Positions 1 through 61,034 of a stretch of 64,000 nt of DNA are shown piece by piece. The position numbers and the translations under genes are program-made. The stretch comes from Chrysemys picta bellii (lineage: Eukaryota), in the NCBI RefSeq assembly GCF_011386835.1, contig NC_088793.1, positions 172,732,001-172,796,000 of the forward strand, written 5' to 3'. Numbering within the stretch: position 1 is the stretch's first letter; every line of letters begins with the position of its first letter. Below the pieces are notes generated by a model. That model had not been told where the DNA came from. It searched no databases and saw only the letters and a program-made list of their open reading frames with translations.

Positions 1-337
1 GCATCAGGTGCTGGCTGCGCTCGCCATTCTCGCTGAACGAGCGGTCCCGGAACTTGTTCTCCTTGTTGAGCAGCGCGGTGGGGCTGCTGCTCCCTCCGCC
101 TCCCCCCCCGCCCGTGCCCGTCTCCTTCAGGCTGCCGAACGAGGAAGAGGAGGACGAGGACGACGAGCTGGAGCCCGAGGAGCCTGGGAACTTGGAGCTG
201 TTGGCCAGAGCCTGCAGGTTGCTGGTCGAGTGCCTTCGCAGAAACCCCGGCGCGAAGCTGGAGCTGGGGGAGGTCACGGGGGTCCCCACCGCCTTCTTGT
301 CCAGCATGCTGCTCAGGTTGGTCAGGGCTTTTTCACT
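1..337 (-). CDS. ZFP36L2: ZFP36L2 (TIS11D) coding exon 2, 5' part; continues beyond window start
   Basis: Minus strand reads [44 protein letters not shown]...[26 protein letters not shown], matching the recalled ZFP36L2 N-terminus ([29 protein letters not shown]). Acceptor tttccag| at 338-339, phase 0. Confidence 0.96.
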
Positions 338-1028
338 CTGGAAACGAGAGGGGGAAAGGAGGAGAAAGAGAGTTTGCAAAGTGACTCGGCCGGGTAGCAG
401 TTCTGCAAGTTGCCAGCGCCCCCTGAGACTGCACGGGGGTAAAACGCCCCCTCGCAGCACATCTGCAGGGCGAGCGTGGGACATCTTAATGTCTCCCCTG
501 CAGCCTGAGAGCTATGCACTAACCCTTACTTCTCAGCAGTGTCTTTAACAAGGTGACACAGCTCCAGGTAAAGCTTCACCTTCACAGCACAAGCCTAAGG
601 ACTTCCATTGCCAGAGTTCGAAGTTTTGGGGGAGATCTAGTACTGACTTCAGCACATTTAAAACTAAAAGCTTTAGAGACCTTAAAGCTCCCCACTGCAA
701 CACAACTCGAACTCTTTGATAAACTTCCAGTCAACAAATCTACTTAGAACCCTGTGCCCAGAGAACTGCAGATCAGTTTGGGAGGGATGAAACACCAACC
801 AGGCAAACTGTCACAATTTAAATGTTAACTTGATCACAGAGTAAGTTACGTGCAAAATGCAGCCCACATGGAAAGCAGCACCCCTCCCCCAACAAGAAAA
901 AGGAGTTAATTTCACTTGTTAAATAGTCACACAAACTTCGAAAGAAAACACTCAAGTGCTCAGATTTGCTAAGAGCCATTTAAAACGTTCAAAGTGCTTG
1001 GCAGACAAAATGCAAACTCTTCCCCTAC

Positions 1029-1079
1029 CTTGCACAAGAAGTCGATGTCGTAGAAGGCAGATAAAAGTGTCGTAGACAT
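1029..1079 (-). CDS. ZFP36L2: ZFP36L2 coding exon 1 (17 codons)
   Basis: ATG at 1077-1079, MSTTLLSAFYDIDFLCK, donor |gtaggg at 1027-1028. Splices in frame to exon 2 across a 691-bp GT-AG intron. Confidence 0.96.
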
Positions 1080-1279
1080 TTCGAGATCCTGTAGTGATCG
1101 GAAATACAGGAAGGACCGAAAGATCCCGCTTTCCTCGGAGGCTTTGGAAAAGCCACGACTAGATAGGAAAGGGCTGATTACTTGAGATCCGAAATGGTCC
1201 AATCACTTTCCCGGCAGGGGTGGGTTAGCGGGTGCCCGGCGGAGGCGGTGGCTACTGCTGCAGCGAGCTGACTGCTGGA

Positions 1280-1445
1280 ACTCTGCAAGCCCTGTGCTCG
1301 GCACATATATAAACGCCGGACAGTGCAAGGGGCGGGACCCAGCCGGGCCCGCCGGGGTCTCCCAGCAACACCGCCCAGTCGTTCTCACCCAGCCCTGCCC
1401 CCTCCTCAGCCGCTCCGCTGCTTCTCATTGGGCGCCGCCAATTTC
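1280..1445 (-). promoter_or_regulatory. ZFP36L2: ZFP36L2 core promoter in CpG island
   Basis: TATA-like TTTATATAT (minus) at 1305-1313, GC boxes GGGGCGGGA at 1329-1337 and CCGCCC at 1371-1376, CCAAT boxes at 1427-1431 and 1438-1442. CpG-rich. A TSS near 1275-1285 is inferred from TATA spacing only. Confidence 0.7.
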
Positions 1446-1994
1446 TTTCAGGGGCCTGGAGTGCAGGGAGGTGCTGTGGGGCTGAGCGGCAGAGAAAGAG
1501 CGGCGGGCGGGGTAGCCGTCGGCTGTACAGCTAGCGTCATGCTCACTCGGGGTTGCAGTGAGCCATTGGCTACGCGATTGTACTATACAGTCTTGTGACT
1601 CTGCTATGCATGGGGTTATAGAGTGGAAAGTATATAGAAAGCATTCTACAAGGCTTGCTACACAATGCACTGTGGGTAGCAGGCAGTCCACTATACACAG
1701 GGTGCACTGTTGTATACACTTGTATTAGTAAACACTGTGCAGTATATACAAGGCTGCTACAGATGAGTGTAGCTTGCTGCAGATTGTGTATAGAAAGCAT
1801 GGTCCTATACATGGAGATTTGCTATGGAAATACAGAGGGCACTTACTGAATGCACCGTGCATATAGGTTTGTTACAAATACAAACTGCATAGAAAACACT
1901 CAAAAGTAAGACTTGTTACAGAACGTACTACCTAGAAACCACGCTAACATTTAGGAGTTATTGACGCAAAAACACTGCAGACGTATCTAGGAGG

Positions 1995-2088
1995 TTGCAT
2001 CTGAAGAAGTGAGGTTCTTACCCACGAAAGCTTATGCTCCCAATACTTCTGTTAGTCTCAAAGGTGCCACAGGACCCTCTGTTGCTTT
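1995..2088 (+). mobile_element. Penelope-like element terminal (pLTR) fragment, family A
   Basis: Shares gaaagcttatgctcc...gttagtct...aggtgccacagga..ct.tgttgcttt with the copies at 60533-60726 and, more weakly, 29959-29999. Family assignment from recalled reptile PLE termini. Confidence 0.75.
1997..2037 (+). ncRNA. Minimal type-I hammerhead ribozyme motif with intact core, inside PLE fragment
   Basis: GCAT-CTGAAGA-A-GTG(A)GGT-TCTT-ACCCAC-GAAA-GC-TT-ATGC: stem I GCAT/ATGC, stem II 6 bp with one bulge, palindromic AAGCTT replacing helix III, predicted cleavage after CUU (2033). Confidence 0.7.
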
Positions 2089-2379
2089 GATCATTCGATA
2101 TTATTAAACTCCTGATTTTCTTTTAAAATGCCTCGGGAAAATCAGTGTCTCTTTTATTGCAAAAGACATACACGCACCATGTCCCTGACTAGGACTTTTC
2201 AACCAGCACATGTCGGAAAGGGTTTCCCTCTCACTTTAATATGCCTGGCGAATAGGCTGGGAAGCTTAAAAAAAGGAAGATGCACCCAAGTACCTCGGAG
2301 TGAAACGGGACACCTCTTCCTCCCTCCCCACCGAACATCAACTTTTGCCACGTAATTGATTTGAAACAAACTTTGGGTC

Positions 2380-3450
2380 CTTGCTTGCTGCGCCCGCGTA
2401 ACTAGCGGACGGTCGCTAGGGTGTGTTACTTTGCAACACAAAGCGCGGGTGGCTAAAGGGATCGGGTTTGGGGGCGGAGGGGGGAGAGGAGGGAAGAAAG
2501 AAAGAAAGAACCAGTTCCCCTCCCGGCGGGCGGCTCCTGCACAGCAAAGGGCCTCCCCGTCCCGCGCCGCCTGCACCATGCGCCCGCCTCCCGGAGCTTT
2601 CCAATAAGGCCTAGTCGATCACAGAGACTTGGCAGCCGGTCAAGGTCTTGTGATGCGATTAGCAAAGCCAATTTCTTCTCCTTTGACTTGGAGCCCCAAC
2701 GCCCCTCCCTGGGCAGCAGCACCGCAGGGCTAGAACGAGGACACAAGCGTCCGCAGCCCCGGCCGCTCGCTCGGTGCCCTTCCCCGGGCGGAGTGCGCGA
2801 GGGAGGGAGGCCGCCGCCCGGGGAAGTGCAGCCGAGCCGCGGCTGCAGAGCGGCCCCAGGCTCGAGCGCTGCCTAGCTTGTGCAGGGAGGAAGGAAGCCA
2901 GTGCTAGGGGTGAGTGGAAGGGGACGTAACCGTACTGTGCTCCACACCTCAGCCGGGGGAGGGGGGCACACGCACTGCCCGCATGGGTTCCTTGGCTACG
3001 CAAAATATACGCGCTCCTCAAGACAAATAAGCAATGAGCCTGGCCTATCTGAGTCTGCACGGCCGGGAGGGGAAGAGTTAACCCCGGGGCCCCTTTCTTT
3101 GCAGCACCCCTCCCCCCTCCCAGGTCACAGCTCTTTCTGTGCAACTGCCCGGCCAAGTTATCCCTTCCCCTGCAGCATTAATGCCCCTCCCTCCTAAAGA
3201 GCCCTTGTCTGGACAGTAGCTGGGACGGGGGGACAAAGTAGTGGTTAGAAGGAGCGAACGCCCAAAAAGGGAGCTAATCTCCCCACCCCCGGAGAAATAG
3301 CAGATGTTTTTAACCACACTGTACACGCCAGGTAACCCCGCTTGTCCCCCCCCCCCCCAGACATTCATAAATCTGGCCTGACTCCGACATCCAGGCTTGT
3401 ATAAACACGTTCGACAGCACGATTCTGCATTCCCAATACTTGCGTTTGCT
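2380..3450. promoter_or_regulatory. Second CpG-rich island upstream of ZFP36L2 (enhancer or divergent promoter candidate)
   Basis: Dense CpG/GC content with several GC boxes, no recognisable coding frame and no TE hallmarks. Confidence 0.55.
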
Positions 3451-4178
3451 AACAGTTGAAACATATACAAGGGGAAAATGGATGCGCGTGTAAAAGTTTC
3501 CCTGCATTTTATGGGTTACAAAAGCAGTGGAGACGTTTGATCCTCTTTCGGTTCTTTCTGAGCCGGGATGTCAAGCCCTGAAAATCCGAGGGCAAGTCTG
3601 CCCACGTCAGCAGGAAACCTGCACTTTGCAAAGAAATTTACCAAAGGAAAAGCAACTTCAACGGCGTTTTATTGGGACATTTTGCGCCGGGTCTTCACAC
3701 CAGTTTTTCGCAAAACGGCTCACGCCTCCATTTGGCTTCCTCCTCAGTGTGACTGTGTCCAGCCCCGCGGATAAATGCACTTCTGGGAGCGACTGCAGCT
3801 TAGCAACGTTTCAGCGCAGGAGCACAGTCCCTCCTCCTGCAAAAGGCAGCACAGGGTGCGATATTTCACCCCATTGCTCAATCTGTTAAAAGGTCACAAT
3901 TGCTAACAGTGTGTTAATAAACTATAAAGGACGAGAAACTCTAACGTAGGCCATTTACGTTTAAAAATAAAAGATACCCGAGGGGGGAAAAAAGCACCAA
4001 ATCACATTCCTTTCTGTACCACAGTCCTTCATGGGACAAATCTCTAACTCACCAAATGCACCTTTTAAACTAATCTGCTTGGCAGCGCTTTCTAACTCGC
4101 GGCTAAGAAGCTGCGTTGCTAAACTGGAGGTGGACGTGACATGTTGACATTTAGTCCCGCAATGGTTTTATGGTAATA

Positions 4179-4195
4179 TGTCACCCTCTAGTGCC
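4179..4195 (-). promoter_or_regulatory. CTCF-like motif
   Basis: Minus strand GGCACTAGAGGGTGACA is a partial match to CCASYAGRKGGCRSYA. Confidence 0.35.
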
Positions 4196-5821
4196 TCAAC
4201 CCTGCGAAGGCATCCCAGGTAGAGGAGGCAACAATATTCTATTATTTTCATCGGTATCCAAACAAAACTTAAGTTTTCCTTTAATATTTTCCTGAAGTTC
4301 TGTGAAAACATTACAGTTGCGAGTGACTTACTACGTAAGGAGACTCAGTTCCTCAAATGGGGAAAAAATTTAAACTGGGATTAACATTATATATTTCCAA
4401 TAATGTGTATTTTCTCCTTAGCTGCCTCCATTCATTTGGTTTCATGCTAATATGGTTAGTTCAAACTTCCCTCTCCTCCCCCTATTCAAAAACTAAACCG
4501 TGTAATAAGATTTGAAAACACCATCTAGGGGGCAGATCCTGCCCCTTAGTTGCCAGTCTAAGTAAATACATAGTTTATGAAGATAATCATGCAAGAAGCA
4601 GTGTATAATCAGCCTTTGAACGACAAATACTTTGATACATTGACTTAGATCAAATACATCACAGATAAGTACTCTCTACTAGACTGCTAATCCTGTACTG
4701 CAGCTGCTGTTTAAGGTTTAAAGGTTTCTGATTTAGTAGTTATACAGTAACCCAAGTCACCAACAATATGTGGTGAAATGTATGCAAGATGATGTAAAAT
4801 TATTTGCTCTCTATAAACTAAGAGATATTACTTAGTTTAAAGTTACACGTTTAAAAACATTGATAAGGAAGATTAAGATTTAAAGTAATTTTGTTCACTG
4901 ATTAACCATGTTCTTGAGGCTTTACGAAGTTACTTATGTTCTGTTATAAATCTTGTGGATATACTACTGTGCTGTTAAAAGTTGTCTTACTCATTTTTAT
5001 ACCATTCAAACTACCAAGCCCCACACAAGAAGAGCAGCAGTGAAGGATTTTTGAAATCCAGAGGGATTAATTTCTATTTGTATTATAGCATAAAAAGTGA
5101 ATAGCTACACCAGATGTTAAAAAAAAGTTGGAAAGGTGTGTAAAGTGACAGTTGCTAACTACTAGTGTTGAACAAATGTACTTACGAATAGCAGATAAAA
5201 TTTATGCTATTAATCTAATGAACAGAAAACAGCTTTTTCATAAAATAGATTTATGATGACTAATCTGGATTCTGTTTGTATTTATTTATTAGTAAATAGG
5301 AAAAAATGAATACCTGTGAACTGTCCTTTCATTGTAAACCAAGTTTTCCTTTGCCTCATTGAAATCTCATGGTTCTTTATTATTGTAAGTTATTTACATG
5401 AGAAATGCTGAATCATGAAACTGCAGTTACAGAAAATATTTATGATAAAAAGTCACTGAAATAAAAGATAATATTCTGTTTTGAAAATAAACCACTTAGG
5501 CTTTAATTTCAGCTTAGTACTTATGCAGTGGAAAGCAAATATTATGTCAAACTGCTCTCTTCCACTTTTAACTCTTAAATAAAAATGTTTAATTGTGACA
5601 ATCTAACACATTTTTTCAAAATATTTTTCAGAGCCTAGTTTAGCAGCCCATTCTAGTTATAACAGTATTATGAAAAATTAACAATGATACAACTAATACT
5701 TGCTAGAGAAATTCATTTTACATTAATCGAACTGGGCTTCAGGTTTACGTTGAAGATTAAGCTATATACATTAATGTGAAACCCAGCACTGTTTCACTAG
5801 TTCTTAGAAAATGTTGTATTA

Positions 5822-29958: not shown

Positions 29959-29999
29959 AAAACAACGAGAAGTCCTTGTGGCACTTTAGAGACTAACAA
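29959..29999 (-). mobile_element. 41-bp PLE micro-insertion with target-site duplication
   Basis: Minus strand tttgttagtctctaaagtgccacaaggacttctcgttgtttt (family A tail), flanked by the direct repeat attaccaca (29950-29958 / 30000-30008). Confidence 0.65.
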
Positions 30000-48479: not shown

Positions 48480-49388
48480 GCTATGGGATATTGTGGGGTG
48501 GATCTCTCTCAATCTCTCCCATTGAAGCTGTTCCACTTTCCATGCTAAATATTCAGGGACTGGAGCAGGAGCTGGAACCTGGATGTCCCCCCTCCCAGGT
48601 AATCACCCTAATCAACATGCTAGAGAGTCATTCTCTTCTCTCTTTCTACATGGTAACAACAGTATTTTATAGGAGGAACCAAATATGGGGCAAAAGCAAA
48701 AATATTTTCAGAGATGTTCATGCACTAATTTGTGGGCTCAAAACTTTTCCAGCTACTTTAATACAACCAGATAAATAAAGTAGCAAAGGAATGGCTGACG
48801 TTGCAGGCTTCTCCATGCTCACAGATTCCTAAAGTGAAATCCTGATCCAATGAAGTCAATGGAAATCTTACCATTGACTTCAGTGAGGCCAGGATTCCAC
48901 CCATAGATTTTCATGGTCAGAAGGGATTTCCTGATTAACACAAACGATAGAACTTCATCTAGTAATTCCTGCTTTGAATGCTATAACCTGTGGTTGAACT
49001 AGAGCATATTTTTAAAAAAGACATCCAATCTTGATTTCAAAATTTCAAGTAATGGAAAATTCACATCTCTTTGTAAGGTGTGCCGGTGGTTAACTGAATT
49101 TTCACAGTTTCAACTTTCAGCCATGTCTTTTTCTGCTACACTAAAGAGCCCTCTAGTAAATTATTGTTCCACATTAATTCAGTAAGCTGAAACACGCAAT
49201 CAGTGGTTCCAATATTGAAAGGGTCAATTTAAAGTGCATGATACCCTTTTAAGTCTTTCAAAATAACTGATTGACATGATTAAAACACATTCAATATATA
49301 AAATATCATGTGCTGTTGAGTTTCATTTATTCCAGTCTCTAAAGTGTTCCATGAGAATACTGGTGCTTAATCCTAGAAATTTACTCAC

Positions 49389-60532: not shown

Positions 60533-60726
60533 AAAGCAACAAAGAGTCCTGTGGCACCTTATAGACTAACAGACATATTGGAGCATAAGCTTTCGTGGGT
60601 GAATACCCACTTCGTCACCCATGAAAGCTTATGCTCCAATATGTCTGTTATTCTATAAGGTGCCACAGGACTCTTTGTTGCTTTTTACAGATCCAGACTA
60701 ACACGGCTACCCCTCTGATACTTGAC
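60533..60726. mobile_element. PLE family A insertion arranged as an inverted duplication
   Basis: 70-bp arms 60533-60602 and 60615-60684 (2 mismatches) around a 12-nt spacer. The plus arm continues ttacagatccagactaacacggctacccctctgatacttgac. Confidence 0.85.
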
Positions 60727-61034
60727 AGATTTAAAGCTCAGGATTAAAGCTCAAGGTGGTGTGGCAATAAAGACAGAAAGAATGATTACAGTTTGCATAT
60801 TGAGAGCTCAAAAATAGTACACGTTTACTCCACCCTGCCTTATGAAGCCTTCCAAAACCACAGCAATACCTAAATACTGTTAGTAACAGCATTTGAATGC
60901 TTTTAAAGGCGGAAAAGGCAACTCCTTAGGAAGTGTGGAATGATACATTATGTGGTTATGTCAGAATCAGGAGCCACTATGAAATAGCCTTCAGTGAATA
61001 TTGAGCCCATCATTTCAAATGGGTGAAATACAAG

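What the first reader, a model, noticed from the sequence alone, without database searches (positions are those of the whole stretch)
1997..2037. Intact minimal hammerhead ribozyme about 0.7 kb upstream of ZFP36L2, on the divergent strand
Seen: all core boxes are present (C3UGAAGA9, G12AAA, CUU site), with stem I GCAU/AUGC, stem II GUG(A)GGU/ACCCAC closing a UCUU loop, and a palindromic AAGCUU where helix III should be. There is one extra A between A9 and stem II. Established: Penelope-like retroelements carry minimal type-I hammerheads lacking helix III that self-cleave as dimers. Inference: this is the only copy in the window with an unmutated core (its CGAAA CpG has survived inside a CpG-island domain). 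It lies where divergent transcription from the ZFP36L2 promoter would read it in sense, so it could cut or delimit an upstream antisense RNA. Activity of a solitary copy would need trans-dimerisation and may be weak.
Basis: partly seen in the sequence, partly recalled or inferred. Interest (0 to 1): 0.7.

Follow-up and report, generated by a model that had tools for sequence, protein, structure and literature searches.

The report
Young Penelope fragment beside ZFP36L2
This is an ordinary jumping-gene scrap: a published type of tiny self-cutting RNA motif, present in over 9,000 identical copies in this genome and missing from this spot in a close relative, so it is likely intact because it is young, not because it controls the neighbouring gene.

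Summary
The motif is real and as described, but it is not special. The exact 41-mer occurs 9,425 times in this genome. It lies in a 90-bp insertion identical (94/94) to the end repeat of intact 2,880-bp Penelope-like elements with an RT + GIY-YIG frame. The published painted-turtle minimal hammerhead differs at two stem II/loop letters. About 40 genes should have such a copy within 1 kb by chance. The copy likely arose by internal priming on an uncut element RNA and run-off at its start: 51 of 70 sampled copies begin within 8 nt of stem I, and copies starting at the cut site are not in excess (43 against 57 control). The scan noted such 5' ends before on other genomes. One weak hint remains: RNA contigs of two carrier runs reach from ZFP36L2 exon 1 into the insertion and stop, unstranded and with other explanations.

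The parts
1995..2088 (+). Short fragment of a Penelope-like element's pseudo-LTR (pLTR). 90 bp are new relative to the empty site (1994-2083 or 1995-2084); 2085-2088 (CTTT) are shared by element and target; no target-site duplication; no 3' tail; the element's own TATA-like motif is not included
   Evidence: 94/94 identity to the junction between units of intact elements; contig joint 1993->2084 in runs X18 and X19; ends mapped
1997..2037 (+). Minimal type I hammerhead motif (stem I, core, stem II, palindromic remnant of helix III)
   Evidence: two letters different from the Chrysemys picta row in the supplement of PMC4209133
2033..2034 (+). Predicted cleavage site after C-U-U (not shown to be cut)
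   Evidence: hammerhead numbering on the sequence; no genomic footprint of cutting
1029..1079 (-). ZFP36L2 exon 1, coding part
   Evidence: translation; spliced join to exon 2 seen as a loose end in runs X3 and X7
1..337 (-). ZFP36L2 exon 2, 5' part (continues beyond the window into L024)
   Evidence: Tis11B_N E 4e-26; zinc fingers in L024
1305..1313 (-). TATA-like motif, likely the ZFP36L2 promoter
   Evidence: sequence only; start site inferred, not mapped
2103..2108 (+). ATTAAA polyadenylation-signal variant in host DNA just past the insertion; could end a divergent RNA without any ribozyme
60533..60727 (.). More diverged (86-91%) head-to-head pair of the same kind of fragment, both cores broken

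Best explanation
The motif is the minimal hammerhead of an active Penelope-like retrotransposon, carried in a 90-bp fragment that is absent from this site in a close relative and is likely a recent, functionless insertion. Shown: full elements are 2,880-bp head-to-tail units, each with this exact motif just before an RT + GIY-YIG frame. Most dispersed copies start 2-5 nt before stem I and end about 50 or about 90 nt after it. Inferred: the element's RNA starts at an initiator about 4 nt before stem I, 28 nt behind a TATATA motif. The element's reverse transcriptase primes at one of two internal sites in the first pLTR, copies through the uncut ribozyme and runs off the RNA's 5' end, leaving 90-130-bp scraps; this copy is the tail-less form. 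In the parent tandem RNA two motifs 2,880 nt apart could pair through the palindrome and cut, perhaps helped by the element's protein. The lone copy has no partner in cis and no promoter of its own, so it likely cuts rarely or never.
For: 9,425 exact 41-mers and 14,638 matches to a looser intact-core pattern. 100% identity over 94 nt to junctions flanking 919-codon frames; neighbouring units 100% identical, units at two loci 99.5%. RVT_1 E 3e-11 and GIY-YIG above cut-off. Empty site in organism D in two studies, with 6 substitutions in 911 flank bases. 51 of 70 cores in 60 loci start within 8 nt of stem I (41 at 3-4 nt); 3' ends cluster at +44 to +59 and +85 to +95, matching the two internal start sites and the 30-40-bp tail reported for the anole element (PMC11167929). 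No excess of copies beginning at the cut site: 43 against 57 at a control position, and only 15 of 30 inspected truly begin there. Published: a single minimal motif from Schistosoma showed no cleavage; the anole ribozyme cut only with element protein, and uncut RNA was the main template. About 40 genes are expected to have such a copy within 1 kb on a given strand (assuming 20,000 genes).
Against: Both junctions are seen in organisms B and C (runs X2, X9) and the left junction in another sample of organism A (X10; the right flank has no cover there), so the copy is shared, not private to one individual. In RNA runs X3 and X7 (organism B, two studies) one contig runs from exon 1 into the insertion and cover stops there, whereas in X19 (empty site) a low-depth contig crosses to beyond 2700. 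Youth does not exclude a recent effect. The start site of the element RNA was not mapped from reads. The excess of G before the 5' end (56 of the first 100 listed; p about 1e-7 against an assumed 31%) fits copying of a cap, but can also come from inverted arms.
Confidence: 0.9

Rival explanations
1. One reading: the divergent (plus-strand) RNA from the ZFP36L2 promoter reads through the motif and is cut at 2033/2034, by pairing in trans with other element RNAs or with help from element protein. The insertion would shorten the upstream RNA in the species that carry it.
For: Orientation fits. Stems I and II are predicted to form in context. RNA contigs in X3 and X7 cover the region up to the insertion, with none over 2120-2546, while X19 without the insertion is covered across. 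Family sequence is plentiful in those RNA runs, so partners in trans may exist.
Against: Contigs are unstranded and break at any high-copy repeat. DNA run X10 has a similar hole at 2112-2451. A host ATTAAA at 2103 could end a plus-strand RNA anyway. The cleavage-competent dimer scores -15.9 kcal/mol against -19.2 for two monomers. No cut footprint in the family. Organism D does without the insertion.
Confidence: 0.06
2. The insertion, read backwards, supplies or marks an upstream start for ZFP36L2 itself, giving a longer 5' leader in carrier species; the ribozyme is irrelevant.
For: In X3 and X7 the exon 1 contig is continuous from 1029 to 2042/2070, while in X19 it stops at 1212 with a gap to 1445. 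Bidirectional pLTR promoters have been proposed (PMC3846280 passages).
Against: The fragment lacks the TATA-like motif of the pLTR. Contig depth is a mean and cannot separate exon 1 from upstream cover. Tissue, species and library differ between runs. X3 also has low-depth cover at 2570-2700.
Confidence: 0.04

Closest known systems
Minimal hammerheads (min-HHR) of metazoan Penelope-like elements, including the Chrysemys picta row (Cervera and De la Pena 2014, PMC4209133; seen: parts 1-2 of 4 of the text, term passages, and passages of supplement file 2; file 1 could not be searched)
   Same: Same architecture, same unpaired base between positions 9 and 10.1, same G10.1-C11.1 pair and palindrome. 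Stem I and core are the same as in the published turtle row. The paper reports most motifs as dispersed single copies or opposite-strand pairs.
   Different: Two letters in stem II and its loop differ (one gives the bulged A), and so do the flanks: a sister subfamily. The paper does not treat this locus.
Poseidon element PAc of the green anole (Frangieh et al. 2024, PMC11167929; seen: parts 1-2 of 4)
   Same: Tandem units, a hammerhead at the pLTR-ORF junction, two internal reverse-transcription starts that give an optional tail, and an uncut RNA as template.
   Different: This family has the Cys-rich linker of the Neptune/Nematis type, and its first Met codon lies downstream of the ribozyme. 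In the two parts read, the paper does not describe a pile-up of copy 5' ends just before stem I.
Neptune/Nematis clades of endonuclease-bearing PLEs (Craig et al. 2021, PMC8557442; seen: term passages)
   Same: One frame with RT and C-terminal GIY-YIG, a C-x4-C-x2-C linker motif before the endonuclease, partial tandems, inverted 5' copies, and a 30-40-bp tail.
   Different: No tree was built, so Neptune and Nematis were not told apart.
Animal non-LTR retrozymes (bioRxiv 10.64898/2026.07.22.740005; seen: term passages)
   Same: Non-coding, PLE-related sequence with a hammerhead.
   Different: Retrozymes are tandem arrays of at least two ribozyme-bearing units. This is a single dispersed fragment of an autonomous element.

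Membership tests
Minimal type I hammerhead of PLEs | Core boxes CUGANGA, GAAA and NUH in type I order | tested here: met
   2001-2007, 2026-2029, 2031-2033
Minimal type I hammerhead of PLEs | Unpaired base between 9 and 10.1; G10.1-C11.1 pair; stems I and II | tested here: met
   A2008; G2009-C2025; pair probabilities 0.81-1.0; features as listed in PMC4209133
Minimal type I hammerhead of PLEs | No helix III within one copy; palindromic 15.2-16.2 | tested here: met
   AAGCTT 2028-2033 is its own reverse complement; intramolecular 2029-2032 pair probability 0.0
Minimal type I hammerhead of PLEs | Lies in the pLTR of a PLE | tested here: met
   The same 94 nt stand before and after 919-codon RT + GIY-YIG frames at 2,880-bp spacing
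Minimal type I hammerhead of PLEs | Self-cleavage (as dimer or protein-assisted) | not testable with these tools
   Needs an assay. The indirect genomic footprint is negative: 43 against 57 control
Endonuclease-bearing PLE, Neptune/Nematis type (parent element) | Single frame with RT and C-terminal GIY-YIG | tested here: met
   L040:1591-4347, RVT_1 and GIY-YIG both above cut-off
Endonuclease-bearing PLE, Neptune/Nematis type (parent element) | CX2-5CxxC linker motif | tested here: met
   C-x4-C-x2-C ahead of the GIY-YIG motif in the translation; definition
Endonuclease-bearing PLE, Neptune/Nematis type (parent element) | Placement in an RT tree | not tested
   No reference PLE proteins were at hand
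Host-domesticated regulatory ribozyme | Kept at the orthologous site across related species | tested here: not met
   Empty site in organism D (runs X18, X19); present in A, B and C
Host-domesticated regulatory ribozyme | Core better kept than in neutral sister copies | tested here: not met
   Identical to 9,424 other copies, so no contrast is possible
Host-domesticated regulatory ribozyme | Transcribed in sense with RNA ends at the cut site | tested here: inconclusive
   Only unstranded contigs were available
Non-LTR retrozyme | Tandem array of at least two ribozyme-bearing units | tested here: not met
   Single copy; no such array in 1-5000; the nearest other family matches in the window are at about 60.6 kb

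The most novel reading that the evidence does not exclude
A Penelope ribozyme that landed recently 0.7 kb upstream of ZFP36L2 now sets the end of the promoter's divergent RNA in the species that carry it, cut with help in trans from the element's own abundant RNA or protein. That would be a ribozyme caught in the act of becoming a host regulator, with a natural empty-site control in a close relative.
Probability: 0.06. Interest if true: 0.65.

Novelty: already known. Interest (0 to 1): 0.13.

Why it matters
The locus matters little: it is one of thousands of identical scraps of a published motif. Two by-products have some value. First, the copy ends in this very active family support a model in which Penelope RNA starts at the ribozyme and is copied uncut from internal priming sites, which would explain why such genomes are littered with 90-130-bp ribozyme fragments. 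Second, filled and empty alleles in close relatives give a ready test of whether a lone minimal hammerhead can affect a neighbouring promoter's RNA.

Tried and rejected
Rfam scan of the whole window: 26 matches at E up to 10, none a hammerhead and none at the site. Folding z-score of the motif alone: not significant. The stem II pair probabilities used wrong coordinates and were redone. 'CpG survived in an island': rejected, because the flank is CpG-poor and most family copies keep that CpG (C>T about 16-18% and G>A about 12-14% of summed contig depth). Cut-site footprint: looked for and not found; copies preceded by a target T would be missed, as would those preceded by A in the control. Lack of RNA cover past the insertion in X3 and X7: not counted as evidence, since DNA run X10 has a similar hole. 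Run X20, the only run on record as RNA, covers only the repeat and says nothing about this locus. L021, L022 and L026 were fetched as possible full elements and were not. Earlier findings by sequence and by place: nothing. Literature: 'ZFP36L2 + turtle' listed 7 papers, none relevant by title or abstract start; 'hammerhead + turtle + Penelope' listed 3, one relevant.

Full report
Observation. Numbering gives stem I 1997-2000/2034-2037, C3-A9 2001-2007, an unpaired A2008, stem II 2009-2015/2020-2025 with a bulged A2012, G12AAA 2026-2029, a self-complementary AAGCTT 2028-2033, and a predicted cut at 2033/2034. In four sequence contexts stems I and II are predicted with probabilities 0.81-0.99 and 0.94-1.0, and helix III does not form within one copy. 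By itself the motif is not statistically striking: folding z -1.56; 10 core-pattern hits in the window against 6.2 expected; no hammerhead among 26 Rfam matches. The neighbouring minus-strand gene is ZFP36L2 (the synonym of the PDB name is recalled), with a spliced exon 1-exon 2 join seen in two RNA runs.

It is a repeat. A search of the own genome returned 62 matches from 40 scored candidates, most of them 98-100% identical and covering about 95 nt, often as head-to-head pairs. The exact 41-mer occurs 4,768 + 4,657 = 9,425 times in 2.37 Gb, with 0 for the reversed control. A looser intact-core pattern gives 14,638. That is one exact copy per 252 kb, so about 40 of an assumed 20,000 genes should have one within 1 kb on a given strand. 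Nearness to a promoter needs no special explanation.

The parent element. In L005 and L023 the same 94 nt follow frames with RVT_1 and/or GIY-YIG matches. A protein search listed 150 scored matches of 13,532 candidates at 98-100% identity, many in 919-codon frames spaced 2,880 bp apart. In L037-L040 the window's 94 nt are 100% identical to the junction between units. Neighbouring units in L037 are identical, and L037 and L040 units are 99.5% alike. [quoted passage not shown] I built no tree.

Age of this copy. Contigs of four DNA-like runs were laid on 1500-2500. Organisms B (X2) and C (X9) have both junctions; another sample of A (X10) has the left junction and no cover on the right flank. 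Organism D (X18) has one 5,934-nt contig that joins 1993 to 2084, with 6 substitutions in 911 flank bases (0.66%) and one 13-nt indel. A second study of organism D (X19) shows the same joint. The insertion is therefore 90 bp with no target duplication; its last four letters coincide with the target. I infer that the empty state is ancestral, because a precise loss at the element's borders is far less likely than an insertion from a family this active; no species tree was available.

How such copies likely arise. I fetched 60 loci from the first part of the exact-match list on contig C1. They were selected for a whole core, so copies cut inside it are excluded. Of 70 cores, 51 begin within 8 nt of stem I (41 at 3-4 nt), 7 at 9-100 nt, 8 at 101-599 nt and 4 beyond 600 nt. 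The 3' ends cluster at +44 to +59 and +85 to +95. The window copy begins 2 nt before stem I and ends at +51. The two 3' clusters match the two internal priming sites and the 30-40-bp tail shown for the anole element (PMC11167929). In full elements a TATATA motif lies 28 nt before the A at -4, which sits in an initiator-like word (the initiator consensus is recalled; TATA and initiator-like motifs in a pLTR are described in PMC3846280). 2,330 copies have a non-element letter right before that A. Among the first 100 listed it is G 56, C 33, A 11 (counted by hand; p about 1e-7 against an assumed 31%). This fits copying of a cap, but inverted arms and target duplications supply some of these G, so it is only suggestive. 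Copies with a break at the cut site number 43, against 57 at a control position four letters upstream; of 30 inspected, 15 really start there and 15 are point changes. So nearly all insertions were copied through an uncut ribozyme. The simplest reading is internal priming in the first pLTR and run-off at the RNA's 5' end. I reached this before looking at earlier findings; the scan's notes report the same pattern in other genomes, and one reports the opposite.

Can the lone copy cut? Not tested. Published results point to no or little activity. A single Schistosoma minimal motif did not cleave and multimers did so weakly. The anole ribozyme cleaved only with element protein, and no RNA-seq reads ended at its site. 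A two-strand calculation puts the cleavage-competent dimer at -15.9 kcal/mol, against -19.2 for two monomers; this ignores tertiary contacts.

Evidence against my reading. In X3 and X7 (organism B, two studies) a single contig runs from exon 1 (1029) to 2042 or 2070, and there is no cover at 2120-2546. In X19 (empty site) the exon 1 contig stops at 1212 and a depth-5.6 contig runs from 1445 across the site to beyond 2700. This shows sequence upstream of the gene in RNA-like libraries, and it would fit either a divergent RNA that ends at the insertion or an upstream start for ZFP36L2. But contigs carry no strand, break at high-copy repeats and may include DNA. DNA run X10 has a similar hole, and a host ATTAAA at 2103 offers an ordinary end. 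I give these readings 6% and 4%.

Comparison with what is known. Cervera and De la Pena 2014 describe this motif class in PLE pLTRs, including the unpaired base before stem II, the palindrome, dispersed single copies and opposite-strand pairs, and name turtle. Their supplement lists a Chrysemys picta motif with the same stem I and core, differing from this copy at two letters of stem II and its loop (file 1 of the supplement could not be searched). It works like, and is a member of, that class on every sequence feature tested; cleavage is untested. It fails the two tests of a domesticated regulator that could be decided here.

Verdict. Observation confirmed; interpretation partly supported. 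Already known motif, recent and probably neutral insertion. Interest 0.13.

Noticed in passing
G000, 60 loci L041-L100 and genome-wide patterns: Most dispersed copies of this family start 2-5 nt before stem I, 28 nt behind a TATATA motif, and end at two sites about 37 nt apart; G is over-represented just before the start.
   Followed up: partly
L037-L040 (e.g. G000:C1:335134000-335153999): A very active PLE family: head-to-tail 2,880-bp units with intact 919-codon frames, neighbouring units 100% identical, often followed by an inverted copy.
   Followed up: partly
window 1029-2070: RNA-like contigs in two runs of organism B are continuous from ZFP36L2 exon 1 to the insertion; in organism D there is a gap at 1213-1444 and low-depth cover across the empty site.
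   Followed up: partly
window 60533-60727: More diverged head-to-head pair of the same fragment type; the right arm carries the 3' tail. Its hairpin gives a spurious MIR5048 match.
   Followed up: yes
window 29959-29998 (-): Short 80% match to the 3' part of the fragment, probably a still older piece.
   Followed up: no
window 48830-48905: A hairpin that matches mir-1677 on both strands below the gathering score; probably a small inverted-repeat element.
   Followed up: no
L003, L013, L018, L064: Some copies have a short piece of the ribozyme's own core repeated just before their 5' end, which suggests template jumps within the RNA.
   Followed up: no
L026:4208-7999: Gag- and pol-like retroviral frames next to a PLE fragment pair (judged by eye from the translation).
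   Followed up: no
L006:2-1573 and L021:1-1681: Long frames of other mobile elements beside PLE fragments: one transposase-like, one CR1-like LINE (judged by eye).
   Followed up: no
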